From: a phage
Length of the DNA stretch: 64,000 bases
Sequence record: PZ445446.1
Direction: 5' to 3' (one strand)
This document shows, piece by piece, positions 6,890 to 61,586 of this stretch; position 1 is the stretch's first letter, and each line of letters opens with the position of its first letter. The notes under the pieces are model-generated. The model searched no databases, was not told the origin of the DNA, and saw nothing but the letters and a program-made list of their open reading frames with translations. A program made the position numbers and the translations under genes.

Positions 6890-7900
6890 TTTTAAGTTAT
6901 CAGATTGCCAGAGATCAGGAGGATTTCTAAAATGGATTTCCTCCTTTTGATATTTTACCTACCAGGATATTTTAAAATCCTTAGAAAATCAGAAAATGGA
7001 TCGAAAACTAAAATGGATTTTTCAGAGCAGGCACGACGAGATGAACCACTCATCCTATCGTCTGCACCATATTCCAGACCACCATTACAGATTTCCCGCA
7101 CATGCTCACACCCTTCTACTAGAACTTCCCCCACTTACCCTTGACCTTTTATAGTAATAATCCAACCACTACCTTGAAGTTGTGGCGCAGCTTTCCAAGT
7201 ACTCGATCTGTTTTTCGTTTCAAAGATTGAATTTTCTGAAAATTTTTCTCGATAAATTTCTCAGTACTCGATCTGTTTTTCGTTTTCTGAATCGGATTTT
7301 CTGGAAATCGTTCCGGCTCTCGACCTGAAATTTTTGGGGACGAAATCGATTTTTCGTTTTCAGAAATGGATTTTTAAAATTTCTATATGGGAATATTTTA
7401 GTGGATACTATTTTATAGGAAATTGTTACGGAGGATAATTAGCGTGCTAATTAAATTTATTAAATGCGAGGAGTTCTCATTTAGAATTTTGAATGATAAT
7501 CATTCTCGTTTGCAGAATAACGGGCAGGCCCGGTGATTGTCTCCCGGCCCCTACTGCCCCGGCTTGTTATTATAGTAACACACAGGACAAAGAAAGCAAG
7601 AAGTTTTTGCATAAATTTTTAGACGATAATGATAATCGTTCTCATTTCATGCAGCGCCCATCCCCGGTGGTTGTCTCCCCCGTCACCGGTGCCTGCCGTC
7701 CTTTCGATAGGTATATTTTGCCACCTGGCGGGGCCGCTGTCAACACTTTTCAAAAAAAAAAAAAATTCTAACCTGATGCGCTGACCGCTGCAACCTGGCG
7801 GGGCCAGCCTGGCAGGGCCTAACTGACCAGGTAGGAGAGAATGAAGGCTTGCAAACCTGGTGGGCCTATGCTATAGGATAGGTAACAATTGAAGAGGAGG
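6890..7900. repeat. non-coding repeat-rich region
   Basis: Two direct copies of gtactcgatctgtttttcgttt (~7200 and ~7264), several aaatggattt / gattttc units, paired gataatc(a/g)ttctc and gtg(a/g)ttgtctccc copies, and an A14 homopolymer at ~7752-7765. Confidence 0.6.
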
Positions 7901-7907
7901 TACAAAA

Positions 7908-8045
7908 ATGGAAGGTAATATGATCCCCCTGGTTGAAAAGGCTATGGCGGGAGCGTTGGAACATAAAGAAGAGTACGAAAAAATGATGGTTAACCTGGCA
8001 GGGGCGGCGGCTGGAGAATTCTACCCAAAAAATAATTTTAACTAA
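7908..8045 (+). CDS. hypothetical micro-protein
   Basis: 45 aa ORF not in track; strong SD agaggagg 6 nt upstream of ATG. Confidence 0.35.
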   Translation: MEGNMIPLVEKAMAGALEHKEEYEKMMVNLAGAAAGEFYPKNNFN

Positions 8046-8130
8046 TGGTTGACAGCTCGGACAGTTCTTGTTATTCTTATCCTCACAAGGTGAACAACAC
8101 CACACCAATTAACAGAGAGGATAAAAAATC

Positions 8131-8328
8131 ATGAACGCCTACGGAATTAAAGTACGTCGCAACACTCGCCAGGTGGTCACCAATCAAGTGATTTGCCGGG
8201 TGGATGTAACCATCAACAACGGGCAAGGCCTTTATAAATTTCGTCGCGGTCATAGCTATACCCTGCAACAGCTTAACCGTTGCGCCCTGACAAAAGGTCA
8301 GATCAACCACTGGTTTAATAAAAAATAA
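8131..8328 (+). CDS. hypothetical small protein
   Basis: 65 aa ORF; TTGACA promoter-like sequence at ~8048 and agagaggataaaaaatc SD. Confidence 0.45.
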   Translation: MNAYGIKVRRNTRQVVTNQVICRVDVTINNGQGLYKFRRGHSYTLQQLNRCALTKGQINHWFNKK

Positions 8329-8391
8329 TGTTGACATATGGTCTGACACAAAATACACTGAAATCACAAAAGACACTAAGAGGATAAAATC

Positions 8392-8790
8392 ATGAAAACC
8401 ACTACCTTTAATTTTGATAATGCGGACTTTTCTTTTTCTGATGTCAAGAACTGCCGCCGTGATCGTGGATTTTACAAGGCTTATAATCTGGTGGGCCTGG
8501 ACGATGACAATAATTTGCACGAAGTAGCTGAGATCCGGTATTATGCCGCCGCCAGTGGTAACACTCACTACTGCGTGTTTTGGATTCACGACAACAAGAA
8601 CAATAAGTACGGTTATACTGGCGGCAAGGCGAGCGGTCACGGTTACGATAAAGCTAACGCAGCACTTGAGAGCGCATTAAATGCTATGGGGATCACTGCC
8701 GACGGCTGGATCTACGAAGAAGAGTTTTTGTCGGCACTTGCTGACCACCTGGGCTATAAAAAGCACATTGTGACATGCGCCCACGAATAA
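8392..8790 (+). CDS. hypothetical protein
   Basis: 132 aa ORF; TTGACA promoter-like at ~8331 and aagaggataaaatc SD. Confidence 0.5.
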   Translation: MKTTTFNFDNADFSFSDVKNCRRDRGFYKAYNLVGLDDDNNLHEVAEIRYYAAASGNTHYCVFWIHDNKNNKYGYTGGKASGHGYDKANAALESALNAMGITADGWIYEEEFLSALADHLGYKKHIVTCAHE

Positions 8791-8873
8791 AAATCATTGA
8801 CACGCTGCAAAATTTAAGTAAACTAGACACAAAAGGCGGGAATGTTTCCCGCCAGCACAAAGGAAAAAAGATC

Positions 8874-9269
8874 ATGAATAAGAACGTACGCCGCATCATG
8901 AACGAACTGGCAAACGATGAAAAAATTATTGACATGCATTTAGTCAACATTTGCCGCCGTTGTGTAACATATAACAACCGCGCCGCAAAAGCGCGTGAGA
9001 TGAACGCAAAAGGCACCTTAAAGCCCTTTCAGGTGGTTGTAAAATCTATAACCAGTGCAGCAGGCCAGGCGCATGACCACAACAACGGGAGCACTAATAT
9101 TGATCCGTCTTACGTAATGAAACGGATCCGGACTTGCAAGAATAAAGAGCAGGTGTATAATGTCATAGACTGGTTGGATTCTATGGGCGATGTGGTTTAC
9201 AATAGGTTTTCTGCAGCTATCGAGATCCAGCTTGACAGGTTGGACGGTAAAGTACTGAAAACTTACTAA
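8874..9269 (+). CDS. hypothetical protein
   Basis: Internal ATG at 8874 chosen; upstream TTGACA, then 5'-UTR hairpin ggcggga-atgtt-tcccgcc, then aggaaaaaag SD. Confidence 0.45.
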   Translation: MNKNVRRIMNELANDEKIIDMHLVNICRRCVTYNNRAAKAREMNAKGTLKPFQVVVKSITSAAGQAHDHNNGSTNIDPSYVMKRIRTCKNKEQVYNVIDWLDSMGDVVYNRFSAAIEIQLDRLDGKVLKTY

Positions 9270-9271
9270 GA

Positions 9272-9318
9272 TTATTTTTAGATGGCCTTGACTTCAGGGC
9301 CATCAATAAAGTAAACTA
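9272..9318 (+). repeat. repeated intergenic promoter-hairpin element, copy 1
   Basis: attatttttagatggccttgacttcagggccatcaataaagtaaact; a 7-bp inverted repeat (gatggcc/ggccatc) encloses a TTGACT -35-like hexamer. Confidence 0.6.
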
Positions 9319-9349
9319 ATCCCAGTTAAGCGAAAAAGGAGGCTTGAAG

Positions 9350-9469
9350 ATGAGCACTACACGCCAACACACAAAGGTAACGATTATCGTTTGCATCATT
9401 GGTTACATCCTGGCGCAAATGTTGATGGGTAGCGCCAATGATTTCGCAAAATTTTTCTTAGACTTTTAA
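9350..9469 (+). CDS. hypothetical small membrane peptide
   Basis: 39 aa ORF not in track; aaaggagg SD; hydrophobic core IIVCIIGYILAQMLM. Confidence 0.35.
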   Translation: MSTTRQHTKVTIIVCIIGYILAQMLMGSANDFAKFFLDF

Positions 9470-9497
9470 TTGACAAGCTAACTTAAATCAGTATAAT
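9470..9497 (+). promoter_or_regulatory. sigma70-like promoter
   Basis: TTGACA, 16 bp spacer, TATAAT upstream of ORF 9550. Confidence 0.55.
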
Positions 9498-9549
9498 ACT
9501 AAGCACATAAACGGGAAAACTTCCCAGAACACCAAAAGGAGAAAACATT

Positions 9550-9900
9550 ATGAATACTTCCATCACTATGACCGCCGAAGAAAAAGCCCTGCAGATCGCC
9601 GCTCTGAAAAAACAGATTGCAGAACTTGAAGACAAGATCGACAATTTTGAAATCGACGAAGACAAGTACGACGATAAATATGATGAATGGTTAGACGAGA
9701 TCTACGGCGAAATTATGATCGGAAACATTTCTTTTCTTCCGTCGCGTATCCTCAAGGAGCTAGATCCTATCGCTTACCGCTGCGGATTTAGCGACTACAT
9801 CGACAGCCTGGATATTGAGGACGATGAAGAATACCAGGAATTACAGACAGAGTTAGAAGAAGCAAAAGAAGAGCTTGCAGAACTGGAAGAAAACGAGTAA
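9550..9900 (+). CDS. hypothetical acidic coiled-coil protein
   Basis: 116 aa ORF with aaaggagaaaac SD; highly acidic and heptad-like. Confidence 0.5.
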   Translation: MNTSITMTAEEKALQIAALKKQIAELEDKIDNFEIDEDKYDDKYDEWLDEIYGEIMIGNISFLPSRILKELDPIAYRCGFSDYIDSLDIEDDEEYQELQTELEEAKEELAELEENE

Positions 9901-9950
9901 GATTATTTTTAGATGGCCTTGACTCCAGGGCCATCAATAAAGTAAACTTT
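9901..9950 (+). repeat. repeated intergenic promoter-hairpin element, copy 2
   Basis: Near-identical to copy 1 (gatggccttgactccagggccatcaataaagtaaac), directly after the stop at 9900. Confidence 0.6.
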
Positions 9951-9989
9951 ATACTGTTAACACTGAACTAATGCATAGGAGTTAAAACC

Positions 9990-10235
9990 ATGGCAGCACT
10001 AATCACCAAATATTATGCCCCTACCAACACCAAAAGCGCCCGTATCATGGTAAAAGGCTTCGGACGTAAAAAGGTGTACACCTGGGATTATGCCTTAGAC
10101 ACGGAAGACAACTACACCAACGCGATGACCGATTTTATTAATGATCTGAACACGCGGATCTTGACAAATTATAAAATTACCGATATTGCCTATATAGGGG
10201 AAGGCGGGATCTGTTTTGTCGGTATCGTCAAATAA
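9990..10235 (+). CDS. hypothetical protein
   Basis: 81 aa ORF with aggag SD downstream of repeat element copy 2. Confidence 0.45.
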   Translation: MAALITKYYAPTNTKSARIMVKGFGRKKVYTWDYALDTEDNYTNAMTDFINDLNTRILTNYKITDIAYIGEGGICFVGIVK

Positions 10236-10310
10236 GCTGTTTTTTCGGTGGTCCTGGTAGCAGGGCCATCTATAAAGATAGTTTATCAATACAATGAAAG
10301 GAGAAAGTAC

Positions 10311-10664
10311 ATGATCAGCGGGGCAAGTTTTATTATTGGCGCTATTGCTACGGCTTTAATTGTAAACAAGATCCAATCTAAAAACGAAAAAGATAGCAAC
10401 GCCCTTACAGAATACCCGTTTTGGGTATTCAACGACAATGAAGACTATATTATCAAGTACAAGAATGAGAAGGGCGACCAGGTAACACCGCGACCGATCC
10501 CGGCTTACAAGATGCAAGAAACACTATACCGCCTAAAGGCTGGAGGCGCAAAAATCGTAGACTTTTGGGGATACGATCACACAGATCAGGAAGTTATAAA
10601 GCGCCGTATCCGGGCTATTCAGGCCAATATTGAAGTTAGCAAGGGGGGAATATATGAAGATTAA
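10311..10664 (+). CDS. putative membrane-anchored protein
   Basis: Internal ATG at 10311 with aaaggagaaag SD; N-terminal hydrophobic segment; degenerate copy of the repeat element upstream at ~10236-10290. Confidence 0.45.
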   Translation: MISGASFIIGAIATALIVNKIQSKNEKDSNALTEYPFWVFNDNEDYIIKYKNEKGDQVTPRPIPAYKMQETLYRLKAGGAKIVDFWGYDHTDQEVIKRRIRAIQANIEVSKGGIYED

Positions 10665-10851
10665 TTTTGAGAAGATTGTAAAGCGATCTCATGCTTCCGA
10701 AGAGCTGCCGGAACGCCGCCAGCGCAACAATAAACTGAATAAGCCAAAAAGATTTGGGAAGATCTGGCGGAATCATTATGATCGCAAATTACCGGGCCTG
10801 CTTTTGGAACGTGAACGACAGGCGGAACGATACCGCCACAAAGGCAAATAA
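10654..10851 (+). CDS. hypothetical basic small protein
   Basis: ~66 aa from ATG at 10654 with aaggggggaa SD; Arg/Lys rich. Confidence 0.4.
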   Translation: MKINFEKIVKRSHASEELPERRQRNNKLNKPKRFGKIWRNHYDRKLPGLLLERERQAERYRHKGK

Positions 10852-10858
10852 CAACCAA

Positions 10859-10887
10859 CGCCCCGCCATTGTGCGGGGCTTTTTATT
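10859..10887 (+). terminator. rho-independent terminator
   Basis: Hairpin ccccgc-cattgt-gcgggg followed by ctttttatttc. Confidence 0.6.
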
Positions 10888-11092
10888 TCTATCCTACAAA
10901 TAGCGCCCCTGGTTGGCCCTGTAAGCGCCAAAAAGGCCCCACCTATGCAATCGCCCCCCTTTAACCTGAAAACATCGCTTAGGGCCGTTTTATGGCGTTA
11001 AAAATATCATTGACAGTGATTTTATTTAAAGCTTGACATCTTAAACAGGTTAGCTATACTAACCACATCAAAGAGAGAAAGGAGTAAACGCC

Positions 11093-11341
11093 ATGCGTAA
11101 ATTAAAAAATTTTGATAAAGTTGATGTTGTCCTGAATAATTTTTACTACTGCAACAACAAGGCCATTTGGTGGCGTGATAGTTCCACCGATAAAGTCAAG
11201 GCGCGCTTTCTCCAGGGGCACTGGCAAGGCCGCCCAGTGATTAAAATCATGGGGCAATTGGTAGCGTTTAAAAATTGCCGCCGTGTTGATGACGTTGAAG
11301 AGATCTTGAATATTTTACGCCACAATAATTTAAAAAAATAG
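11093..11341 (+). CDS. hypothetical protein
   Basis: 82 aa ORF; TTGACA/TATACT promoter-like at ~11026-11055 and aaaggag SD. Confidence 0.5.
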   Translation: MRKLKNFDKVDVVLNNFYYCNNKAIWWRDSSTDKVKARFLQGHWQGRPVIKIMGQLVAFKNCRRVDDVEEILNILRHNNLKK

Positions 11342-11343
11342 TG

Positions 11344-11371
11344 TTGACAAGTAAATCTCAATAAGTATACT
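11344..11371 (+). promoter_or_regulatory. sigma70-like promoter
   Basis: TTGACA, 16 bp spacer, TATACT; followed by 5'-UTR hairpin ggcgggaa-gttt-tcccgcc and SD. Confidence 0.55.
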
Positions 11372-11428
11372 TAAGCACACAGGCGGGAAGTTTTCCCGCC
11401 ACTAACAAAGAAAATAGGAGAAAATATC

Positions 11429-12052
11429 ATGACCACCGTTAACATTACCACAGGTTGCAATTTATCTTTCGACGTGCTGACCGATGAACAAAAAGAAAAA
11501 GCTATTGAAATGGTCCGCGAAAGAGAAGAACACAGCGGAGAGGATTTTTTCGCAGAAAGTGTAATTGAATATTATAAAGAACAAGTTTTTCCAGAGTACG
11601 GCCTTGAAGATACCGATGTACATTGGTCCGGCTTTTGGTGTCAAGGCGATGGCGCGTCAATTAGTGCTGAAAATGTAGACTTAGAGAAATTCTTGCGTAA
11701 AGTCAAGGCCCTGACCAAGTTCCGATCAATTCGTCACTTGTTCGGAACAATGCACGATGGCGAACTATCAGCCAGTGTTGAACGCGACAAGTACAGCCAT
11801 TACAGCCATGAAAACACTGTAAGCGGATATATTGATACTACCTGGCTAGATCTGACCGCAAAACAAGAAAATAAAGTAGAAGATCTGGAAGAGCTGATCA
11901 CCGAGACGGTACGGGAGCTATCCCGCAAGGTTTATGTAGACCTGGAGGAGGCCTATCTTGAACAGTTTACTACCGAAAACCTGATCGGCCTTATTGAAGC
12001 CAATGATTGGCGGTTTGATGTGGATGAATATGGAGAAATGAGTTTTTCATAA
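11429..12052 (+). CDS. hypothetical protein
   Basis: 207 aa ORF with ataggagaaaatatc SD; no recognisable motif. Confidence 0.5.
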   Translation: MTTVNITTGCNLSFDVLTDEQKEKAIEMVREREEHSGEDFFAESVIEYYKEQVFPEYGLEDTDVHWSGFWCQGDGASISAENVDLEKFLRKVKALTKFRSIRHLFGTMHDGELSASVERDKYSHYSHENTVSGYIDTTWLDLTAKQENKVEDLEELITETVRELSRKVYVDLEEAYLEQFTTENLIGLIEANDWRFDVDEYGEMSFS

Positions 12053-12143
12053 ATAAAGTGTTGCAATAATCTAAAAACCTGCTATATTAAAACTTAAGGG
12101 GGAGAGATGACTTGCCCCCACACAAAACAAAGAGGAAAACATC

Positions 12144-12524
12144 ATGAAAAACACTACTAAAGCTATTGACACCGTTATGTTTAACCTGGTTACATTCCGT
12201 GAAGATATGAAAGATCTTCCACGTGAAACAGTGTGCGACCATATCGAAAACTATCGCAAACTAATCAAAGAGTTGCCTTTAAAACGTGACCAGTACGCGG
12301 CTAACGCTATGCTTAACGCCATGATCAAGAAAATGATTCAGTGCGATTTGACTTTAGCTTATGATTATGCAGGTGGTCGTTTTGCAGTATACAATCAGCC
12401 CGTGCCTGGTATGAGCACCACAGAAGAATTGCACGCGTTAAATCTAAAACAAGACGTATGGGATAACATGCCCCGCGTGGTGGTGTGGGCAGAAAGCGGA
12501 AAGATTTACGGCGATAATTTTTAA
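12144..12524 (+). CDS. hypothetical protein
   Basis: 126 aa ORF with aagaggaaaacatc SD; TTGCAA/TATATT promoter-like and GC hairpin upstream. Confidence 0.5.
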   Translation: MKNTTKAIDTVMFNLVTFREDMKDLPRETVCDHIENYRKLIKELPLKRDQYAANAMLNAMIKKMIQCDLTLAYDYAGGRFAVYNQPVPGMSTTEELHALNLKQDVWDNMPRVVVWAESGKIYGDNF

Positions 12525-12588
12525 TCAGGTAACAGGCGGCATATTTGCCGCCTTATTGTTAAACAGAACTGCAAAAGAGGTACATAGA

Positions 12589-12960
12589 ATGGAATTTATT
12601 ATTTTGGCTGTAGTAGTTGCCTTGTTCAACGCCTGGATCGCTGGCAAGATGGGTAGATCCGCTTTTCTATGGTTTGTTATATCTATTTTCCTGGGAGTGG
12701 TTGCAACTATTGTATTGGTTATCCTTGCAATTGTTGACAAGGGGAATAATAGAAAGGGTAAAGTATTTTCAGACCTGTACGACGCTCAAACGTTTGTCAA
12801 CGCCTATTATAGTGATCTTCCAGTCTCCCTACGCTGCAGCCTGGCACAACAGGTTTTTGATGAGGCTAAAACCAGAGACCAAGCCCATGAGATATGTTTA
12901 ACTGAGGCGGATCGCCTATTTGAGAGGAATAGAAAATATGTGGACCAGCCGTTTAAATAA
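12589..12960 (+). CDS. putative membrane protein
   Basis: Internal ATG at 12589 with aaaagagg SD; two predicted TM segments. Confidence 0.45.
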   Translation: MEFIILAVVVALFNAWIAGKMGRSAFLWFVISIFLGVVATIVLVILAIVDKGNNRKGKVFSDLYDAQTFVNAYYSDLPVSLRCSLAQQVFDEAKTRDQAHEICLTEADRLFERNRKYVDQPFK

Positions 12961-13179
12961 TGCCACGTTAATTAACCCCTTTAGTGAAGATTTGAAGCCA
13001 GCCGCCTGGCGGGATGGATTCAATAACGAAAGCTTTATTTTCAGGCCTGATCTTAAGGAATTTTATAACAATGGATCGAACAACGACAGAGATAATTTTT
13101 CTTGTAATGTGCGTGGTGATAATACTCCTGGGGGCCATTGCAAACCACGTCACTGCTAACAGGAGGAAAGGGGGAGACG

Positions 13180-13299
13180 ATGACACCCAAGGATAAGCCC
13201 CGCACCGATAAGGCGCGCCGTGTTATGGTATGGCTTGAGATCATCGCCCTTGAAATATTGTTAGGCGTAGGGATGTATTTTATCGCTGTAAGTAACTGA
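13180..13299 (+). CDS. hypothetical small membrane peptide
   Basis: 39 aa ORF not in track; strong SD aggaggaaaggggga; hydrophobic C-terminal half; terminator follows. Confidence 0.3.
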   Translation: MTPKDKPRTDKARRVMVWLEIIALEILLGVGMYFIAVSN

Positions 13300-13303
13300 T
13301 AAC

Positions 13304-13340
13304 GGCCCCGATCCCTGGGGCCTAACTTTTCAAATTTTTT
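13304..13340 (+). terminator. rho-independent terminator candidate
   Basis: Hairpin ggcccc-gatccct-ggggcc followed by T-rich tract. Confidence 0.5.
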
Positions 13341-13438
13341 CTCCCTGAGTGTTGCAATCCGATCCAGAATATGGATAATAACAATCAACGGGGAGACACT
13401 CCCCACCGCATAGACAAAGTTCCAAAAGGAGAAACAAA

Positions 13439-13639
13439 ATGAGCAACAATATCCGCGTTATTAACTTCAAAAAAGAAGAAAAAATTGCCGTGCTGATTGA
13501 CGGTCAAGAAATCTTTAAAGGTGATTATGAAGATCATCAAACGGCGATTAGTATCACTCGCGTGATTGGTTACCATAATTTTTACCCTCAAGGCGCTGAG
13601 GCAGCAGTAAAACGAATTAAAGAGATTGTAGGCCTGTAA
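13439..13639 (+). CDS. hypothetical small protein
   Basis: 66 aa ORF; TTGCAA/TAATAA promoter-like and aaaaggagaaac SD. Confidence 0.45.
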   Translation: MSNNIRVINFKKEEKIAVLIDGQEIFKGDYEDHQTAISITRVIGYHNFYPQGAEAAVKRIKEIVGL

Positions 13640-13640
13640 A

Positions 13641-13690
13641 ATTTATTTTTAGATGGCCTTGACTCCAGGGCCATCAATAAAGTAAATTTA
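13641..13690 (+). repeat. repeated intergenic promoter-hairpin element, copy 3
   Basis: atttatttttagatggccttgactccagggccatcaataaagtaaat, directly after the stop at 13639. Confidence 0.6.
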
Positions 13691-13730
13691 AACCCTGTTA
13701 AAATAATCAGTGCAAAAAGGAGTAATGATC

Positions 13731-14030
13731 ATGTTTATCCAGGCTAATAATCTTTATTTCTTTGATGGTCAGATCGTAGACGGCGTGGAGGTGGAAATCA
13801 CCGGGTGCCCTGGCGGTCAGGTTATGACTTTTCGGAATAATGCCTTTGATGATTCTCATATCGTTATGAGAATGGAAGTTAGTAAGCTGGATGACAAGAA
13901 AACACTTATCGACTATTCCGTCAAAGATCATCCAGACTACCACATGATCTATGGTGATTTGTGCATTGTTGACCGTGACAAGGTGGGCGGCATTGTGATC
14001 GCTATTGTGAACGATGTTTTCTCAAACTAA
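13731..14030 (+). CDS. hypothetical protein
   Basis: ATG at 13731 with aaaaaggagtaatgatc SD (track start 13710). Confidence 0.45.
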   Translation: MFIQANNLYFFDGQIVDGVEVEITGCPGGQVMTFRNNAFDDSHIVMRMEVSKLDDKKTLIDYSVKDHPDYHMIYGDLCIVDRDKVGGIVIAIVNDVFSN

Positions 14031-14047
14031 TTTCAGCAGGTGATTTT

Positions 14048-14398
14048 ATGAAAGTAAAACTATATTACCTTAATGAGCTTAACCCCCTTGCCCAGGTCCG
14101 CGCCCTGGCTAATACCTTGATTTGTGAGAAATCTGTATATTGTGTTGAGCTTAACGCCATGCGTGAACGTCTCAAAGGTGGTTACTTTGACATCCATGCT
14201 GCAATCAACGGCCTGAATATGGAATTTATCCGCTTACGTAACAGCCGCCAGAATCTGGCAAGAATGGAACAAGATCCGGCCCACCTTCGTAAGCTGGTTA
14301 TTGAAAATCATCTGATGTTTAATGCCGATGGTGATTATTACCATTTTCACCGCAAACGCTGGTACCGTGGCGGCAATACAGGCAAGAATGCAAAATAA
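14048..14398 (+). CDS. hypothetical protein
   Basis: 116 aa ORF; weak SD; hairpin plus T-tract after stop. Confidence 0.45.
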   Translation: MKVKLYYLNELNPLAQVRALANTLICEKSVYCVELNAMRERLKGGYFDIHAAINGLNMEFIRLRNSRQNLARMEQDPAHLRKLVIENHLMFNADGDYYHFHRKRWYRGGNTGKNAK

Positions 14399-14599
14399 GG
14401 CCCCAGGCAGGGCCTGCAGCGATATAATCACATAAAGGCTATGCGGTTGCATGGCCTTTATTATTTTAGCGTTACAGCGGCCCCAAGGCGCTTAAAAAAT
14501 TTTTAAAGAAGTACTTGCATCAAGTCCTACAATATGGATAATAGGACGTGTCAGGGGGGCGGCCCCCAATCATTAACCGGATAGATAGGAGTTAAAATC

Positions 14600-14884
14600 A
14601 TGGCTATTGTCACCGTTGGCGATGTAGTGGAAATGGAAGCAAAATACTTAAAAGCGGGTATGCATATCCTACGGAATGATCAAGAATTGTTATTAACGAT
14701 GGTAGACTATAATCCCGGCCAGGATTATCCAAGCATCGACTACTTTTTTGAGTATGTTGATGAAGAATTGAAAGAGGATGAGGCTTATCAGGGTGAATTC
14801 TGCAATTTCTTTTGCCCTGATGAGGTTGTAAAAGTTATCTATCAACCTGGAGTACCTTTCCCGCTGCACGCTATCAATAAATAA
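14600..14884 (+). CDS. hypothetical protein
   Basis: 94 aa ORF; TTGCAT/TAATAG promoter-like, GC hairpin ggggggcggccccc, ataggag SD. Confidence 0.45.
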   Translation: MAIVTVGDVVEMEAKYLKAGMHILRNDQELLLTMVDYNPGQDYPSIDYFFEYVDEELKEDEAYQGEFCNFFCPDEVVKVIYQPGVPFPLHAINK

Positions 14885-14938
14885 ACCTGGTGGGGCCGAA
14901 AAGGCCCCAATTATGAAAATAAAGAGAGGTAAATCATC

Positions 14939-15172
14939 ATGATGGAACAAATTAAACGCGCTGAGTCTATTAATGGCAATGTGATCTATTTTGTCAGCAA
15001 AAACGAAAAAGGCGTACCATATGCGGCGGTAATAGTACAACCTGACGGCGATTATTGGTTTACTGTGTACGGCGCTTATTCTTTTGGGCGTCCGGTGCAT
15101 GATAGAATTTTGAAAGTAGCGAACCCTACCGGGAAAAATATTACAGCAGAAAAATTTTTTGAAAATAGTTGA
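14939..15172 (+). CDS. hypothetical protein
   Basis: 77 aa ORF; 5' hairpin ggggcc-gaaa-aggcccc then aagagaggtaaatc SD. Confidence 0.45.
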   Translation: MMEQIKRAESINGNVIYFVSKNEKGVPYAAVIVQPDGDYWFTVYGAYSFGRPVHDRILKVANPTGKNITAEKFFENS

Positions 15173-15249
15173 CATGACCATATAAGACTGTAGAATATAA
15201 ATCAAAGGGGGCAACAAGCCCCACCAACCACAAAGAGGATAAAAAATCA

Positions 15250-15426
15250 TGGCTATTATTGCAAAGACTGAGATCGTAGGCTTAGATTCTATTCTCCTCG
15301 CATATGAGGAAGCTATAGAAATGTATGTGGTTTCCTATGGTGAATATATCCGTGAATATAAATCTATTGATCTGGCTTTTGAATGTTATATTCGCCAGGT
15401 TAATAAAGCGTACGATGATTATCGTT
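15250..15426 (+). CDS. hypothetical small protein
   Basis: 58 aa ORF not in track; TTGACA/TAGAAT promoter, hairpin ggggc-aacaa-gcccc, aaagaggataaaaaatc SD. Confidence 0.4.
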
Positions 15427-15518
15427 AAAATAGCTTGACAACAAACAACCATCTAACAAAGCATAATACATAAGGCGGTGGAATGGTCCGCCACCTGGAA
15501 CAAGAAGAGGAAAACAAG

Positions 15519-15623
15519 ATGAAACAGAAATTAATTGATGCGGTGATCCTGGTTATTGCCCTGGGTATTGGCCTGATTGCAACCATGTCTAATATGATCT
15601 TGTCTTCCAACGGTATCGGGTGA
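15519..15623 (+). CDS. hypothetical small membrane peptide
   Basis: 34 aa ORF not in track; TTGACA/TAATAC promoter, hairpin, aagaagaggaaaac SD; single hydrophobic helix. Confidence 0.3.
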   Translation: MKQKLIDAVILVIALGIGLIATMSNMILSSNGIG

Positions 15624-15632
15624 GGTTGGCAA

Positions 15633-15848
15633 ATGATCACTAACAAAACAGGCAAAACAGAATTTTTACGCAACTTACAGATCGGCAAGCCTGAGATCTG
15701 GTATTGCACTAAAACACCACGTGACGAAATGAAAGACTTCACCGCCACGCTGCAACGGGTAAAGATATCCATCACGCAGAAAAAGGCCTTATTAGTGGTG
15801 GAAGGTGAGATCCCCCAAACCGTTGTTATAGTTGGGCGTACAGCATAG
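15633..15848 (+). CDS. hypothetical protein
   Basis: 71 aa ORF directly downstream of micro-ORF; weak SD. Confidence 0.35.
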   Translation: MITNKTGKTEFLRNLQIGKPEIWYCTKTPRDEMKDFTATLQRVKISITQKKALLVVEGEIPQTVVIVGRTA

Positions 15849-15939
15849 TTTAATTTATACCGATACCCGAAAATTAACCAACAAAGCATAAACAGGCGGT
15901 TACCGCCGCCTTAAACGTAGCAGAAAGAGGATAGACACA

Positions 15940-16224
15940 ATGAAAAAGATGATCGCAGTGGTTGCCCTGGTTGTTGGACTTAATGCGCCTGTAATGGCTA
16001 AAGAGCTGGCAAAAGAGGTTAATCTAACGGATATTCATGCCGTCAATCAAATAGGGGTTACTTATCGCTTATGCCTTGCCGCTAAAACTTTTAAGGACGG
16101 CACGACAGAGTACTACGGATTCGAGGGTATCCGGTGCGGTGAGCTTGCTCGCGACCTTAAGGAAGATCCAGACCTGGAAGATCTGCCCATAACCGTGAAC
16201 GGGAAAACTTACGTAAACCGTTAA
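15940..16224 (+). CDS. putative secreted protein
   Basis: 94 aa; N-terminal signal-peptide-like MKKMIAVVALVVGLNAPVMA; hairpin and gaaagagg SD upstream. Confidence 0.45.
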   Translation: MKKMIAVVALVVGLNAPVMAKELAKEVNLTDIHAVNQIGVTYRLCLAAKTFKDGTTEYYGFEGIRCGELARDLKEDPDLEDLPITVNGKTYVNR

Positions 16225-16373
16225 CCATGAGAAAGATAATTATCACCTTGGGGATTGTGGCGGGATCGCTGGCGCTCTTTCCCCTTATGGTTAGATATGT
16301 GCTGATCAGTATTGTCCTGATAGTCAGTGATCTATTGGAAACGGTTGGCACCTTGTTTTAAAGAGCGGTAAAA

Positions 16374-16565
16374 ATGAATATCGAACAAGTTAGAAAGGTA
16401 TTAGCAGTACTGCGTTATCATAATCATAGAAAGGTTATAGACGATCCTGATTATGTTGATTCAAGTCTGGAAGGGGATACACTGCAAGCCATAAGCAACA
16501 TGCAAGAATTGCTAAAGCGCATGACAGAGAAAAACCGACCGGACTACATAGGCGAAAAAATATAA
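16374..16565 (+). CDS. hypothetical small protein
   Basis: 63 aa ORF; hairpin plus T-run terminator follows. Confidence 0.4.
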   Translation: MNIEQVRKVLAVLRYHNHRKVIDDPDYVDSSLEGDTLQAISNMQELLKRMTEKNRPDYIGEKI

Positions 16566-16582
16566 TCCTTATAAACTACAAA

Positions 16583-16610
16583 ACAGGGCTTGCAATGGTC
16601 CTGTTTTTTG
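16583..16610 (+). terminator. rho-independent terminator
   Basis: Hairpin acaggg-cttgcaatggt-cctgt followed by tttttg. Confidence 0.5.
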
Positions 16611-16777
16611 TTATACTTGTTTCACGGCAGGCACCTGGCGACGGGGGGAGACAATCACCGGGTGTGCCTGCTATATAAAAATTATAAAAACCGTTGACAT
16701 CTGCCAGGTGGTGGGGTAGCATTTATCTCGAAGGGGGCAAAAGCGCCCACACAACAACCGGAAGAGAGGAAAACGCC

Positions 16778-17050
16778 ATGTTAAGCTGGATTAACCAAGA
16801 AGTTGAATCACGTTTTAATGCTATTTGGGATCTCATCGAAAAAGAGGACGGAACATCAAGCCCTTATCTCAATAATCTTGAATTCCATTTCGTGGAAGCG
16901 ATGAACGCAGAACATGATCACGAAGGTGGTGCGGATGAATTCGCTAAAGGATATGGCTTCAACAATGCCAACGAAATGATCGAGGCGGTTGTACTCCAGG
17001 CTGAGGAAGATTATCAATTAAAAACGCTTGAATTCTGCCGCCGTAAGTAA
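16778..17050 (+). CDS. hypothetical protein
   Basis: Internal ATG at 16778 with gaagagaggaaaacgcc SD; TTGACA promoter-like and hairpin upstream. Confidence 0.45.
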   Translation: MLSWINQEVESRFNAIWDLIEKEDGTSSPYLNNLEFHFVEAMNAEHDHEGGADEFAKGYGFNNANEMIEAVVLQAEEDYQLKTLEFCRRK

Positions 17051-17110
17051 TAAGATAATGACACGGGCCAAAAGGCCCACTAATCAGAACCGCACAAAGA
17101 GGTAAACATC

Positions 17111-17374
17111 ATGAAACGTCTTGATCAGCTCAAATTAGTTCAATATATGGCTTATCGTGTTCTTGAAGTCCAGAAAGGTAGCAAAAAAGAGGTTTGCGAG
17201 AAAGCTTATAAGATCTTCACTCGCAAAAAAGATGACTGGATGCTGCGCCAGACTAAAAAGGCTGACATCTTGGGGTACCTGGAAGAAGAGATCCGCCTTG
17301 AAGAGCAAGAAGAGATCCGCCGTAGTGAGGCAGATTATCAGGCAGCTTGGGAAAACTGGATGAGCAACAAATAA
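17111..17374 (+). CDS. hypothetical protein
   Basis: 87 aa ORF; hairpin gggcc-aaaa-ggccc then aaagaggtaaacatc SD. Confidence 0.5.
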   Translation: MKRLDQLKLVQYMAYRVLEVQKGSKKEVCEKAYKIFTRKKDDWMLRQTKKADILGYLEEEIRLEEQEEIRRSEADYQAAWENWMSNK

Positions 17375-17440
17375 TACAACAAGTTACATGGTCAGGGGCA
17401 ATAAAGCCCCTTGATCACATAAAAATTATGCTATCCCTGG

Positions 17441-17469
17441 TTGACAGGGATCGGCAGTTTTGCTATATT
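17441..17469 (+). promoter_or_regulatory. sigma70-like promoter
   Basis: TTGACA, 17 bp spacer, TATATT upstream of ORF 17519. Confidence 0.55.
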
Positions 17470-17518
17470 CTTTTTTGAAGGGAAGTTGTAAGAAAATTAA
17501 CTAAGAGGTAAAAACACC

Positions 17519-17938
17519 ATGAACATTAAATCTAATAATCCGGCATATAGCTTTGATAACGCTTTTTGTCACGGTCCGGCGGCGAAAGGATTCGAAATCG
17601 ATGGTAAACTAATTATTGTCAATGTTGACGGGGAAGAGGTTGCAGTATATCCGGTGGCAGACGTAAAAAGCCGTTTACAATGCCGCATGGATGTTACCGC
17701 CTATCAGCTTGATCCGGTCCGCATAGTTGCCCTGGTCCTGGAAGAAGAAATTAAAGCCATGCACCATAGCAACAGATTTATTGGTGACGCGCAGGATAAT
17801 ATGAAAGTATGCCGCCATAAAGTTAATGAAGTGCTTAAAGAGTACGGCTATAAAGATCTTATGATCAAACGTGAGGAAAAATTCCGCTACCGTAACGACC
17901 TGGCAAATCGGATTTTTGAAATATACGAATCATTATAA
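17519..17938 (+). CDS. hypothetical protein
   Basis: 139 aa ORF with taagaggtaaaaacacc SD; last gene of the rightward block. Confidence 0.5.
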   Translation: MNIKSNNPAYSFDNAFCHGPAAKGFEIDGKLIIVNVDGEEVAVYPVADVKSRLQCRMDVTAYQLDPVRIVALVLEEEIKAMHHSNRFIGDAQDNMKVCRHKVNEVLKEYGYKDLMIKREEKFRYRNDLANRIFEIYESL

Positions 17939-17956
17939 TTTTTTAACTGAATTATC

Positions 17957-17981
17957 AAGGGGCTTAGGCCCCTTTCTTTTT
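17957..17981 (+). terminator. rho-independent terminator
   Basis: Hairpin aggggc-ttag-gcccct followed by ttcttttt. Confidence 0.6.
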
Positions 17982-18539
17982 GTCTGCTCTTCTCCTACCA
18001 TAAACGGCCCTACCTGGCAAGTGGAATAATTGACTAGCCATCAATCCCACATACTGTACAAATATACATGGAAAATAACTATTGCATAATTTTTCATTGT
18101 GTGGTAGCAAGTCCATTTTTACCCGTTTTCTCTCCCAAAAGTGCACGTAATGCCGCTATTGCACAAATTTTAACCTGATGCACATCTCCAATATCTTGTC
18201 AACAACTAAAAATCTTTATAAGTCATACACTTACACAGCATCGAAAGCGTGTTCTACGCGAAAAATCGAGTATAACTATAGCCGCCAGATCTCAGAATTC
18301 ACGTACGCACGCCATTCTATAGCCTGCAAAGTATTTATTCCAACCACAGAATAACGGAATAGTCAATACCTGCATAAAATAATTATTCGTGTAAACTGCA
18401 TAACATAAATCAGCTCAGGTGTCAACATTTTTCGTAAACAGTCCGAAATTATCACGATGAGCTATCATAAACAGAGAAATATTTAGTCGTCTAATGTTTA
18501 CTGTACATTACTATACTGACTGGAATCATTAGATGACTA

Positions 18540-26268: not shown

Positions 26269-26350
26269 AACGTGTTCCTTTTAAAGAAGAGGGAACCAAA
26301 CCCTCTTTGAAAACAATGATACTAAATCTGAAGCGTTGTGTCAACAGTTT

Positions 26351-61381: not shown

Positions 61382-61385
61382 AATT

Positions 61386-61472: not shown

Positions 61473-61586
61473 AATTTATATTTTTAGATGCATAAATAAT
61501 ACAGATAATGGCATTGATATTTATCGTCGTTTATACTAGTCACTAACTGCTCGAAAATCAGTGTCATTATCAGTATAATTTATAAA

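What the first reader, a model, noticed from the sequence alone, without database searches (positions are those of the whole stretch)
7900..17990. Stereotyped early-gene cassettes: consensus promoter, GC-rich 5'-UTR stem-loop, strong SD, small ORF
Across ~10 kb, about 28 small ORFs each follow a near-consensus sigma70 promoter. In at least ten cases a short perfect GC-rich hairpin (e.g. ggcggga-(a)gttt-tcccgcc at ~8831 and ~11381, ggggc-aacaa-gcccc at ~15206, gggcc-aaaa-ggccc at ~17062) sits between the -10 element and a strong SD. It lacks a downstream U-tract, so it is not a classical terminator and would lie at the 5' end of the transcript. That is the arrangement expected for 5'-terminal stabilising stem-loops or processing/regulatory sites.
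Basis: seen in the sequence. Interest (0 to 1): 0.55.

Follow-up and report, generated by a model that had tools for sequence, protein, structure and literature searches.

The report
Promoter-plus-hairpin early gene cassettes
In this rV5-like E. coli phage, many small genes of unknown function carry a strong host-type promoter followed, at a fixed distance, by a GC-rich hairpin that should sit at the very start of the mRNA; this is a real, conserved design, but it is a variant of known ideas (T4-type promoter/stem-loop cassettes, 5'-end mRNA hairpins), not a new kind of system.

Summary
The window is a Vequintavirus (rV5-like phage, 96.6% identical to phage WalterGehring). The region 7900-17990 holds 29 small ORFs. 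All match PHROG families of unknown function.

About 18 ORFs, not all 28, are directly preceded by a sigma70-like promoter. Ten of those promoters are followed by a GC-rich hairpin that starts 9-16 nt (mostly 9-13) after the -10 hexamer. That puts the hairpin at about +2 to +6 of the predicted transcript. An A-rich, U-poor leader (U 9%), a Shine-Dalgarno sequence and ATG follow.

The placement is far from chance (8 of 18 promoters against 0.3-0.9 expected).

The same geometry recurs, more stereotyped, in Phapecoctavirus, Certrevirus, Seunavirus and phage 92CQ. The core there is GGCGG(G/C)AA-loop-TTCC(C/G)GCC. Paralogous copies show compensatory stem changes.

The hairpins are not classical terminators because they lack a U-tract. 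They are unlikely to be protein operators because stem sequence, stem length and loop length all vary.

The best reading is a 5'-terminal mRNA hairpin that stabilises or insulates the transcript. It sits inside a cassette that also marks gene-sized indel breakpoints, as in the PeSL elements of T4-like phages.

Transcription starts and RNA half-lives are untested. I rate this a new variant of a known kind, of moderate interest.

The parts
8797..8876 (+). Cassette 1: -35 TTGACA 8797-8802, -10 TAAACT 8819-8824, hairpin 8835-8853 (GGCGGGAA/TTCCCGCC, 8 bp, -13.1 kcal/mol), SD AAGGA, ATG 8874
   Evidence: (z -4.0)
9470..9552 (+). Cassette 2: TTGACA-16-TATAAT (-10 ends 9497), weak hairpin 9513-9525 (GGGAA/TTCCC), ATG 9550. 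This is the outlier: the hairpin starts 16 nt after the -10.
   Evidence: (z -1.9)
11344..11431 (+). Cassette 3: TTGACA-16-TATACT (-10 ends 11371), hairpin 11382-11400 (GGCGGGAA/TTCCCGCC), ATG 11429. Paralogue of cassette 1.
   Evidence: z -4.5; family D4
12061..12146 (+). Cassette 4: TTGCAA-16-TATATT with TG (-10 ends 12088), hairpin 12098-12119 (GGGGG...CCCCC with an inner 3-bp stem), ATG 12144. First gene of a 4-ORF operon that ends at terminator 13304.
   Evidence: (z -3.4)
13352..13441 (+). Cassette 5: TTGCAA-16-GATAAT (-10 ends 13379), hairpin 13390-13404 (GGGGAG/CTCCCC), ATG 13439
   Evidence: z -3.7
14515..14602 (+). Cassette 6: TTGCAT-16-GATAAT (-10 ends 14542), hairpin 14555-14567 (GGGGG-cgg-CCCCC), ATG 14600
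   Evidence: z -0.5; G/C-run shuffles fold equally well
15169..15251 (+). Cassette 7: TTGACA-16-TAGAAT (-10 ends 15196), hairpin 15208-15222 (GGGGC/GCCCC), ATG 15249
   Evidence: z -2.7; family D5
15435..15521 (+). Cassette 8: TTGACA with a weak -10 (AAGCAT ending 15464, or CATAAT at 15462-15467), hairpin 15473-15496 (contains GGAATGGTCC, shared with other genera), ATG 15519. Hot spot for ORF insertions in relatives.
   Evidence: (z -3.0)
16694..16780 (+). Cassette 9: TTGACA-17-TAGCAT (-10 ends 16722), imperfect hairpin 16733-16748 (GGGGGCAAAAGCGCCC), ATG 16778
   Evidence: z -1.9; family D5
17028..17113 (+). Cassette 10: TTGAAT-17-TAAGAT (-10 ends 17056; overlaps the end of the upstream ORF), hairpin 17065-17078 (GGGCC/GGCCC), ATG 17111
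   Evidence: (z -3.3)
15894..15911 (+). Leader hairpin (AGGCGG/CCGCCT) 28 nt before ATG 15940, with no convincing promoter. The flank resembles cassette 8.
   Evidence: z -2.2
9267..9317 (+). Second hairpin class: a 51-nt repeat in which the hairpin ATGGCC-TTGACTTCAG-GGCCAT carries the -35 hexamer in its loop. Other copies at 9898-9948, 13638-13688 and a degenerate one at 10233-10283. A similar hairpin-over--35 arrangement occurs at 17433-17451.
   Evidence: family D1
14891..14909 (+). Intercistronic hairpin with neither promoter nor U-tract (TGGGGCC/GGCCCCA). Similar ones lie at 14398-14415 and 17394-17411.
10860..10879 (+). Canonical hairpin+T-tract terminator, listed for contrast. Further terminator-like sites on the + strand: 12534-12553, 13304-13322, 14432-14461, 16580-16607, 17957-17974.

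Best explanation
The region is the hyperplastic early block of an rV5-like phage, made of small genes of unknown function. Many of these genes carry a self-contained expression cassette in this order:
1. a near-consensus sigma70 promoter;
2. about 11 nt after the -10 hexamer, a short GC-rich stem-loop, transcribed as the first structured element of the mRNA, about 2-6 nt from the 5' end;
3. a 20-34 nt A-rich, U-poor, unstructured leader;
4. a strong SD and ATG.

**Shown here:** the anatomy, the fixed promoter-to-hairpin spacing, its non-random occurrence, its conservation across five genera, and selection on pairing rather than on sequence.

**Inferred, not shown:**
- The hairpin acts at the RNA level as a 5'-terminal cap. 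It would hinder 5'-end-dependent decay (RppH/RNase E entry) and keep the ribosome-binding site free of upstream pairing.
- In read-through transcripts the same hairpin would act as an intercistronic barrier.

**A consequence, or a second role:** the repeated cassettes serve as short homologies at which whole ORFs are gained and lost, as in the PeSL elements of T4-like phages.
For: **Identity and gene map.**
- The window is 96.6% identical to a Vequintavirus.
- All 29 ORFs match PHROG families of unknown function from first to last residue, which validates the gene starts.

**Placement.**
- 8 of 18 promoters have a hairpin of -8 kcal/mol or better starting +9 to +13 after the -10. Expected: 0.28 or 0.89; P about 1e-10 or 1e-6.
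- The arrangement is enriched against the rest of the window: 6 of 17 promoter-like sites here, 4 of 59 elsewhere; Fisher P = 0.007.
- The hairpin is anchored to the promoter (SD 2.1 nt), not to the ATG (SD 4.7 nt).

**Folding.** z-scores range from -2.2 to -4.5 in 8 of 11 leaders. The rest of each leader is predicted open.

**Not a terminator.** The downstream leader is 9% U, and 9 of 10 leaders start with A. The terminator scan flags none of the ten promoter-proximal hairpins on the + strand, while it does flag six canonical terminators in the same region.

**Conservation of the architecture**. Among promoter-like sites scoring at least 11 in each locus:
- tuntematon (Phapecoctavirus): 19 of 30 are followed by a hairpin starting +5 to +12;
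- phage 92CQ: 12 of 30;
- CR9 (Certrevirus): 8 of 22;
- GEC_vB_MG (Seunavirus): 5 of 12.
Across all sources, 78 distinct hairpins peak sharply at +11/+12 after the -10.

**Structure rather than sequence.**
- On 41 distinct archetype copies, 83.7% of cells pair, against 71.5% in shuffles and 34-57% when the 3' partners are slid by 1-3 columns.
- There are 48 double-change cells against 21 in shuffles (0 of 500 shuffles reach this). G-C swaps to C-G in 13 copies, and A-U to G-C in 11.
- Other copies use unrelated stems (GGGGC, GGGCC, GGGGAG) at the same position.

**Orthologue diversity**: stems 0.063, loops 0.174, leader 0.106, third codon positions 0.083.

**Strand.** The + strand fold is more stable than the - strand fold in 48 of 65 hairpins (P = 0.003; copies are not independent).

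**Indels.** Gene-sized indels among 12 relatives break inside cassettes, at 18-36 bp repeats.
Against: - No transcription start site, RNA-end or half-life data exist for this phage group. The position of the hairpin in the transcript rests on the canonical -10-to-start distance.
- The predicted 3-5 unpaired 5' nucleotides in most copies are at the limit for protection from 5'-end-dependent decay (my own knowledge of the ompA work of Emory, Bouvet and Belasco, 1992). A pure stabiliser would be expected flush with +1, as in T7 phi10.
- Eight of 18 promoters in the region have no such hairpin. Five hairpins sit over the -35 hexamer, where they cannot be 5' caps.
- Purifying selection on stems is only modest (0.063 against 0.083 at third codon positions). 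Single genomes carry stem-weakening mutations.
- G.U against A.C counts do not separate the strands: 14 against 9, not significant.
- In the only experimentally tested analogue (PeSL211/210 of RB49/phi1), the stem-loop reduced downstream lacZ as strongly as rrnB T1 (PMC2839356).
- The covariation comes largely from a few paralogue sublineages, so independent compensatory events are few.
Confidence: 0.5

Rival explanations
1. The hairpins are transcription terminators or attenuators for the upstream gene. This is the PeSL model, and it is how the GenBank record of phage EdH4 annotates some of them. They would limit the build-up of read-through from the many tandem strong promoters.
For: - The EdH4 record labels the orthologues of hairpins 8835 and 15208 'putative transcriptional terminator'.
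- In RB49/phi1 a G(n)-loop-C(n) stem-loop from a promoter cassette terminated as well as rrnB T1 in a lacZ reporter (PMC2839356).
- Most cassette-bearing intergenic regions contain no other terminator.
Against: - There is no U-tract: the following 20-34 nt are 9% U, and 9 of 10 leaders start with A. Canonical terminators with T-tracts exist in the same region and are distinct.
- The hairpin lies downstream of the next promoter's -10 at a fixed distance. It would therefore equally terminate that promoter's own transcripts.
- A terminator has no reason to be anchored to within about 2 nt of the -10 hexamer.
Confidence: 0.17
2. The palindromes are double-stranded DNA operators at about +4 to +22. 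A dimeric phage or host DNA-binding protein would bind them and switch the early promoters off, or tune them.
For: - A 15-22 bp inverted repeat just downstream of the start site is the classical repressor position, as with lacO (my own knowledge).
- Many copies in five genera share a GCGG/CCGC core, and often an AATGGT centre.
- The G.U against A.C test does not show strand specificity.
Against: - In this window, copies at the same position have unrelated arms (GGCGGGAA, GGGGC, GGGCC, GGGGAG, GGGGG). Stems range from 5 to 9 bp and loops from 3 to 12 nt, so half-site spacing is not fixed.
- The two arms change together and stay complementary.
- Loops invert or change freely between close relatives.
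- The + strand fold is on average more stable than the - strand fold.
Confidence: 0.08
3. The cassettes are mainly recombination modules in the PeSL sense. The promoter-plus-hairpin repeats would persist because they mediate the gain and loss of small genes of unknown function, and the hairpin would have little RNA function of its own.
For: - Five of about eight distinct gene-sized indels among 12 Vequintaviruses have breakpoints in cassettes or hairpins, with 18-36 bp duplicated junctions. Examples: 15503-15534, 17079-17114, hairpins 17394 and 17957, and 16567-16606.
- Similarity to relatives stops inside hairpins 8835 and 15473.
- Paralogous cassette pairs and a 51-nt repeat family occur in the region.
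- Loop inversions show that the hairpins form during DNA transactions.
Against: - Recombination homology does not require a hairpin, nor a fixed distance from the -10, nor compensatory stem changes.
- Breakpoints in intergenic DNA are also what survival of viable phage would select for.
- This role is compatible with the best explanation rather than exclusive of it.
Confidence: 0.2
4. The arrangement arises by chance from GC-rich palindromes in AT-rich intergenic DNA.
For: Three of the eleven leaders do not fold significantly better than shuffles: z = -0.5, -1.9 and -1.9.
Against: - Positional enrichment has P about 1e-6 to 1e-10.
- The same geometry appears in four other genera.
- The covariation controls argue against it.
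Confidence: 0.01

Closest known systems
PeSL (promoter-early stem-loop) cassettes of T4-like myoviruses RB49/phi1, PST/T4 and nt-1/KVP40 (Arbiol et al. 2010, PMC2839356; Comeau et al. 2014, PMC4122927)
   Same: - A composite of a near-consensus sigma70 early promoter and an adjacent GC-rich, often G(n)-loop-C(n), stem-loop, followed by SD and ATG.
- Concentrated in intergenic regions of hyperplastic blocks of small genes of unknown function.
- Associated with gene-sized indels between close relatives.
- One of the five PeSL subclasses has the stem-loop downstream of the -10, and another has it over the -35. Both arrangements occur here.
   Different: - A different phage lineage (Vequintavirinae/Stephanstirmvirinae, not T4-like).
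- In PeSLs the stem-loop most often lies between the -35 and -10 or over the -10, so outside the transcript. Here the dominant class starts 9-13 nt after the -10, inside the transcript, at a tightly fixed distance, and is followed by a U-depleted leader.
- PeSL stem-loops were shown to terminate. That is untested here and looks unlikely from the sequence.
- Mini-circles have not been examined.
5'-terminal stabilising stem-loops of E. coli and phage mRNAs: ompA 5' UTR hairpin, T7 gene 10 (phi10) leader, synthetic 5' hairpin libraries (my own knowledge: Emory et al. 1992; Bouvet & Belasco 1992; Mertens et al. 1996; Carrier & Keasling 1999)
   Same: A short, stable hairpin at or near the 5' end of the transcript, followed by an unstructured leader and an SD, with no U-tract. 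The expected effect is protection from 5'-end-dependent RNase E/RppH decay.
   Different: - Those hairpins begin at +1 to +2. Here 2-6 (typically 3-5) unpaired nucleotides are predicted.
- Function has not been demonstrated here.
- Here the element is a repeated family attached to many promoters, not a single-gene feature.
Sigma70-like early promoters already reported for rV5 (33 promoters; PMC3606486) and for Certrevirus CB7/CR3/CR8/CR9 (PMC7344957)
   Same: The same promoters, concentrated in the block of short hypothetical ORFs.
   Different: Neither paper mentions a hairpin downstream of the -10. rV5 terminators were predicted separately.
Intrinsic (Rho-independent) terminators
   Same: A GC-rich stem of 5-9 bp with a short loop.
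   Different: No 3' U-tract (U 9%). Located after a promoter rather than after a gene. Canonical terminators coexist in the same region and are distinguishable.

Membership tests
PeSL (promoter-early stem-loop) cassette | Near-consensus sigma70-type early promoter within the element | tested here: met
   TTGACA/TTGCAA with a 16-17 nt spacer and TAnnnT. Seven of the ten cassettes score at least 11 on the promoter matrix; three have weaker -10 hexamers (GATAAT or AAGCAT).
PeSL (promoter-early stem-loop) cassette | Adjacent stable stem-loop, often poly-G ... poly-C | tested here: met
   Hairpins of -4 to -13 kcal/mol. Several are G(n)-loop-C(n), for example 12098, 14555 and 15208.
PeSL (promoter-early stem-loop) cassette | Stem-loop position: mostly between the -35 and -10 or over the -10 (five subclasses, including downstream of the -10) | tested here: inconclusive
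   Here the dominant position is 9-13 nt downstream of the -10, a minor PeSL subclass. A second class lies over the -35. None lies between the -35 and -10 (PMC2839356).
PeSL (promoter-early stem-loop) cassette | Intergenic, enriched in hyperplastic regions of small genes of unknown function | tested here: met
   All 29 ORFs match PHROGs of unknown function. Enrichment against the rest of the window has Fisher P = 0.007.
PeSL (promoter-early stem-loop) cassette | Indels between close relatives bounded by the cassettes | tested here: met
   Five of about eight gene-sized indels break in cassettes or hairpins, with 18-36 bp junction repeats.
PeSL (promoter-early stem-loop) cassette | Stem-loop terminates or attenuates transcription (reporter assay) | not testable with these tools
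   The sequence argues against it (no U-tract), but only an experiment can decide.
PeSL (promoter-early stem-loop) cassette | Formation of cassette-bounded mini-circles; occurrence in T4-like phages | not testable with these tools
   Mini-circles need inverse PCR. The host lineage here is Vequintavirinae, not T4-like.
5'-terminal mRNA-stabilising stem-loop | Hairpin lies within the transcript, at most a few nucleotides from the 5' end | tested here: inconclusive
   Predicted from -10 spacing only: the hairpin starts 9-13 nt after the -10, so about 2-6 unpaired nucleotides. No start-site data were found.
5'-terminal mRNA-stabilising stem-loop | Thermodynamically stable, and selected as a structure | tested here: met
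   z-scores; covariation on 41 paralogues; stems conserved more than loops.
5'-terminal mRNA-stabilising stem-loop | Lengthens mRNA half-life in an RNase E/RppH-dependent way | not testable with these tools
   Needs a rifampicin chase with stem and compensatory mutants.
Intrinsic terminator | GC-rich hairpin immediately followed by a U-tract | tested here: not met
   None of the ten promoter-proximal hairpins is flagged on the + strand. The downstream leader is 9% U.
Any Rfam RNA family | Covariance-model match at gathering score | tested here: not met
   No match in 7900-17990. The only matches in the window are tRNAs and a group I intron.

The most novel reading that the evidence does not exclude
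The promoter-anchored leader hairpin could be a shared recognition element rather than a passive cap. It has a conserved GCGG/CCGC core, and in several genera an AAUGGU-type loop. It is present on dozens of early transcripts across Vequintavirinae and Stephanstirmvirinae. A phage-encoded or host RNA-binding factor could bind it and coordinately control the whole early regulon of small genes of unknown function. One possibility is to exempt phage early mRNAs from phage-stimulated RNase E decay: rV5 gp11 was proposed as a homologue of T4 Srd, and Srd activates RNase E (PMC3606486; PMC7430671). Another is to shut these mRNAs off at the early-to-middle switch.
Probability: 0.12. Interest if true: 0.7.

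Novelty: new variant of a known kind. Interest (0 to 1): 0.4.

Why it matters
- **Unified expression logic.** If the hairpins are 5' caps on early mRNAs, two subfamilies of large coliphages widely used in therapy and biocontrol (rV5-like and phAPEC8/phi92-like) would share one logic for expressing their early genes of unknown function. Those genes include many host-takeover and anti-defence candidates.
- **Annotation.** Genome annotations that currently call these hairpins terminators would be corrected.
- **Tools.** The cassettes would be natural, compact promoter/5'-hairpin/leader/RBS parts for E. coli expression.
- **Evolution.** The PeSL idea, that regulatory cassettes double as shuffling joints, would extend beyond T4-like phages.
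- **Testability.** Everything can be tested directly with the BASEL phages Bas51 and Bas55 on E. coli K-12.

Tried and rejected
1. **MAFFT alignment of 41 hairpins (A1).** It mis-registered the 3' arms when loop or stem length differed, so the pair counts on it and the covariance model R1 built from it were discarded. I replaced it with an N-padded, anchor-registered alignment, A2. In A2 the registration of each 3' arm was chosen to maximise pairing, which favours 'percent paired'. The shuffle and slide controls address this only in part.
2. **G.U against A.C counts as a strand test.** Not significant, 14 against 9. The + against - strand energy comparison is significant, but the copies are related.
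3. **Literature search for transcriptomes or start-site maps of Vequintavirus.** Nothing relevant was found. One search was badly specified and wasted.
4. **Rfam.** No family matches in the region.
5. **Srd homologue.** I looked at 57.2-59.2 kb. The ORFs there do not obviously look like Srd and were not scanned, so the Srd link rests on the rV5 paper only.
6. **Terminators for antisense transcription.** Four promoter-proximal hairpins are flagged as terminator-like on the - strand. Their T-runs are weak, and the archetype copies in other genera have CACATAG upstream, so I rejected this as a general explanation.
7. **IMG/VR scan for the exact composite** TTGACA-N32-36-GGCGGGAA-N3-5-TTCCCGCC. 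It found only 4 contigs of 97-153 kb, so the archetype is lineage-restricted.

Full report
**Identity of the window.** The 10-kb region is 96.6% identical over its full length to Escherichia phage WalterGehring (Vequintavirus, rV5-like). It matches 232 phage records at megablast level. It is the distal part of a + strand block of small hypothetical genes. That block ends at a stretch of about 2.4-3 kb without convincing ORFs, facing a long - strand unit. This corresponds to the transcription unit 'genes 82-163' of rV5. The rV5 paper reported 33 sigma70-type promoters and 20 terminators for that phage but no leader hairpins (PMC3606486).

**Gene map.** I called 29 + strand ORFs between 7908 and 17938 from SD-plus-start context. 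All 29 match a PHROG family essentially from first to last residue, and every family is 'unknown function'. The ORFs and their starts are therefore real, and the block is a typical early block of genes of unknown function.

**Check of the observation.**
- Ten ORFs (ATG at 8874, 9550, 11429, 12144, 13439, 14600, 15249, 15519, 16778, 17111) share the order -35, -10, hairpin, SD, ATG. An eleventh hairpin, 15894-15911, precedes ATG 15940 without a clear promoter.
- 'Each of about 28 ORFs follows a promoter' is overstated. About 18 ORFs have a promoter directly upstream, 14 of them high-scoring. The other 11 lie in short operons that end at canonical hairpin-plus-T-tract terminators: 10860, 13304, 14432, 16580 and 17957.
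- The consensus scan finds 46 promoter-like sites against 29.4 +/- 5.1 in shuffles. All the best ones are on the + strand in intergenic DNA.

**Is it more than chance?**
- Whole predicted leaders fold better than dinucleotide shuffles, with z between -2.2 and -4.5, in 8 of 11 cases. Leaders 9504 and 16729 are marginal (-1.9). Leader 14549 is not distinguishable (-0.5), because G- and C-runs pair however they are shuffled. Apart from the hairpin, the leaders are predicted open.
- Position is the stronger argument. The hairpin starts 9, 9, 10, 11, 11, 11, 11, 12, 13 and 16 nt after the last base of the -10 (mean 11.3, SD 2.1). The distance from hairpin to ATG ranges from 20 to 34 nt (SD 4.7).
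- Eight of 18 promoters have a hairpin of -8 kcal/mol or better starting at +9 to +13. Expected values are 0.28 from the window-wide density of such hairpins and 0.89 from the intergenic density of the region itself (binomial P about 1e-10 and 1e-6).
- Among promoter-like sites scoring at least 11, the arrangement occurs at 6 of 17 in the region and 4 of 59 elsewhere in the window (Fisher P = 0.007).

**What follows the hairpin.** The 20-34 nt between stem and ATG are 54% A, 18% C, 18% G and only 9% U, against 25% U in the region. Nine of ten leaders begin with A. None of the ten hairpins is called terminator-like on the + strand. The translation initiation regions are themselves stereotyped: A-rich, AGGAG or AGAGG, and often ...AAAATC-ATG.

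**Relatives in the same genus.**
- In 12 other Vequintaviruses (91-98% identical) the cassettes are orthologous. Stems are retained while loops change. Three loops are exact inversions: GTT/AAC at 11390, TGT/ACA at 8843, and GACGT/ACGTC in the 12098 hairpin.
- Mean pairwise difference is 0.063 at paired positions, 0.174 at loop or bulge positions, 0.106 in the downstream leader, 0.086 between -10 and hairpin, 0.083 at third codon positions and 0.031 in the promoter hexamers. Stems are therefore under some, but not strong, constraint. A few genomes carry stem-weakening substitutions.

**Relatives in other genera.** This was the most informative result. I ran the same promoter-plus-hairpin scan on early regions of four further phages. 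The geometry recurs and is more stereotyped: TTGACA-N16/17-TAnnnT, about 11 nt (often gtatCACATAG), then GGCGG(G/C)AA-loop-TTCC(C/G)GCC. A hairpin follows:
- 19 of 30 strong promoter-like sites in tuntematon (Phapecoctavirus, Stephanstirmvirinae);
- 12 of 30 in phage 92CQ;
- 8 of 22 in Cronobacter phage CR9 (Certrevirus);
- 5 of 12 in Salmonella phage GEC_vB_MG (Seunavirus).

Pooling all sources gives 78 distinct promoter-proximal hairpins. Their start offsets peak at +11 (29) and +12 (16). Hairpins 8835 and 11382 of the window are archetypal members. Hairpin 15473 shares GGAATGGTCC with a tuntematon copy. An IMG/VR scan for the exact composite found it in only four contigs of 97-153 kb, so the archetype is restricted to this lineage.

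**Structure or sequence?**
- I used a registered alignment of 41 distinct archetype copies (A2; N-padded so that MAFFT returned it ungapped). On it, 83.7% of cells form standard pairs, against 71.5 +/- 1.2% when 3' letters are shuffled and 34-57% when partners are slid by 1-3 columns.
- There are 48 cells with changes on both sides against 21.3 +/- 3.2, and the covariation score is 0.349 against 0.154. No shuffle out of 500 reaches any of the three values.
- The main swaps are G-C to C-G at one pair (25 against 13 copies), A-U to G-C at the next (27 against 11), and G-C to C-G at an outer pair (4 copies).
- Caveats: the copies are paralogues in a few sublineages, so independent events are few, and the registration of each 3' arm was chosen to maximise pairing.
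- Independently of this family, other cassettes in the window use unrelated arms (GGGGC, GGGCC, GGGGAG, GGGGG) of 5-9 bp, with loops of 3-12 nt, at the same distance from the -10. This is hard to reconcile with a sequence-specific duplex-DNA operator.
- Strand tests are weak. G.T against A.C is 14 against 9, not significant. The + strand RNA fold is more stable than the - strand fold in 48 of 65 hairpins (mean 0.74 kcal/mol, Wilcoxon P = 0.003, non-independent copies).

**Other hairpin classes in the region.**
- A 51-nt repeat has four copies: 9267-9317, 9898-9948, 13638-13688 and a degenerate one at 10233-10283. In it the -35 hexamer lies in the loop of the hairpin ATGGCC...GGCCAT. A similar arrangement occurs at 17433-17451. 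These hairpins cannot be 5' caps of the local transcript.
- Three intercistronic hairpins (14398, 14891, 17394) have neither a promoter nor a U-tract.

Hairpins are therefore a general punctuation of this block. The promoter-proximal class is simply the most frequent and the most tightly positioned.

**Indels.** Colinear BLAST of the region against the 12 Vequintavirus loci shows about eight distinct gene-sized indels. Five have breakpoints inside cassettes or hairpins, with short duplicated junctions:
- ORF insertions in the 15428-15519 cassette, either with a 32-bp repeat (15503-15534) or with breaks at 15444 or 15478, inside the promoter or the hairpin;
- an ORF insertion flanked by a 36-bp repeat of leader 17079-17114;
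- loss of ORF 17519-17938 between the similar hairpins 17394 and 17957 (18-bp overlap);
- a 353-bp insertion at terminator hairpin 16580.

Similarity of ECML-10 and of EdH4/YN3 to the window ends inside hairpins 8835 and 15473 respectively. This matches what Arbiol et al. described for PeSLs, including crossover points inside the loop (PMC2839356).

**Mechanism.**
- Established knowledge: E. coli RNA polymerase starts 6-8 nt after the -10, preferring a purine after a pyrimidine. The spacers (for example agacAcAaaa|GG, taagcAcAca|GG, gtatcAcAtag|GG) offer such starts 2-6 nt before the stem, so the whole hairpin should be in the transcript.
- A GC hairpin without a U-tract should not terminate. 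It would emerge from the polymerase only after promoter escape.
- The most economical function is therefore at the RNA level. A 5'-proximal stem-loop would hinder RppH and 5'-end-dependent RNase E attack. It would also keep the G- and C-rich segments paired with each other, leaving an A-rich, U-poor leader and SD open. This is the design of the ompA and T7 phi10 leaders and of synthetic 5'-hairpin stabilisers (my own knowledge).
- These steps are inferred, not shown.
- The main weakness is that 3-5 unpaired 5' nucleotides are at the limit of what is known to protect.
- In read-through transcripts the same hairpins, and the promoter-less ones, could act as barriers to exonucleases or to scanning RNase E.
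- A speculative link: rV5 gp11 was proposed to be an Srd homologue (PMC3606486), and T4 Srd stimulates RNase E against host mRNA (Qi et al. 2015, cited in PMC7430671). Phage early mRNAs might then need protection. I did not verify an Srd homologue in this window.

**Comparison with what is known.**
- The closest published system is the PeSL of T4-like phages: sigma70 promoter plus stem-loop cassettes in hyperplastic regions that mediate modular shuffling (PMC2839356, PMC4122927).
- Four of its sequence-level features are met here: promoter, adjacent G/C stem-loop, location in blocks of small genes of unknown function, and association with indels.
- The dominant stem-loop position differs. In PeSLs it is mostly between the -35 and -10 or over the -10. 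Here it is about 11 nt after the -10.
- The terminator and mini-circle properties cannot be tested with these tools.
- The promoters themselves are already described for rV5 and for Certrevirus (PMC3606486; PMC7344957). The downstream hairpin is not mentioned in either paper, and the EdH4 GenBank record annotates two of these hairpins as terminators.
- Rfam has no matching family.

**Verdict.** The element is a lineage-wide, position-locked variant of the promoter/stem-loop cassette idea. I rate it a new variant of a known kind, of moderate interest.

Noticed in passing
window 9267-9317, 9898-9948, 13638-13688, 10233-10283 (degenerate); also 17433-17451: A 51-nt repeat family: stop codon, T-run, then a 6-7 bp hairpin (ATGGCC...GGCCAT) whose loop contains the -35 hexamer TTGACT of the next promoter (-10 TAAACT). 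It is a second, distinct promoter/hairpin composite, and the -35 would be single-stranded if the hairpin extruded.
   Followed up: partly
window 7723-7735, 7793-7805, 7807-7819, 7855-7867, 7993-8005, 14885-14897 (+ strand): The motif ACCTGGYGGGGCC occurs 6 times with up to 2 mismatches, against 1.1 expected. Five copies cluster in or next to the non-coding stretch 7145-7900. Related CCTGG..GGGG strings lie at 16634, 16705 and 18014. Function unknown.
   Followed up: partly
window 7189-7374: Three imperfect direct repeats of about 47-57 nt, spaced 65-74 nt apart, lie in a roughly 750-nt stretch that has only short ORFs without convincing support (families D2/D3).
   Followed up: no
window ~17990-20400: About 2.4-3 kb between the convergent + and - strand units has no annotated CDS in WalterGehring, only short ORFs here, and lower GC (0.39). 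It corresponds to the 'non-coding' box of the rV5 map. Small tandem repeats lie at 18833-18869 and 18971-19006.
   Followed up: no
window 63639-63917; 61307-62119: A group I intron (Rfam RF00028, 84 bits) and a cluster of 6-7 tRNA genes. One ARAGORN call, at 61776-61874, has a four-base anticodon and an unassigned amino acid.
   Followed up: no
window - strand promoters at 42897 and 26344; + strand at 57669 and 395: Promoter-plus-hairpin composites also occur outside the region. Hairpin 42844-42866 abuts the -10 of a TTGACT-17-TATAAT promoter on the - strand. Hairpin 26287-26307 starts 9 nt after a -10. On the + strand, hairpins follow the promoters at 57669 (start +10) and 395 (start +1).
   Followed up: partly
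window 11390-11392, 8843-8845, 12104-12112 against loci L001-L012: Between close relatives, hairpin loops are exactly inverted (GTT/AAC, TGT/ACA, GACGT/ACGTC) while the stems stay identical. This is the signature of template switching or cruciform-mediated flipping at the DNA level.
   Followed up: partly
L002 (EdH4, MK327930) 1935-1953 and 8286-8300: The public annotation labels the orthologues of leader hairpins 8835 and 15208 as 'putative transcriptional terminator', although they lie downstream of a promoter and lack a U-tract. This is probably a systematic mis-annotation in this phage group.
   Followed up: yes
window 14023-14388 against L008, L009, L010, L012: The ORF 14048-14398 is absent from four relatives. 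The breakpoints lie 7 and 10 nt before the stop codons of two adjacent ORFs, so this is a C-terminal-end swap rather than a cassette-bounded event.
   Followed up: no
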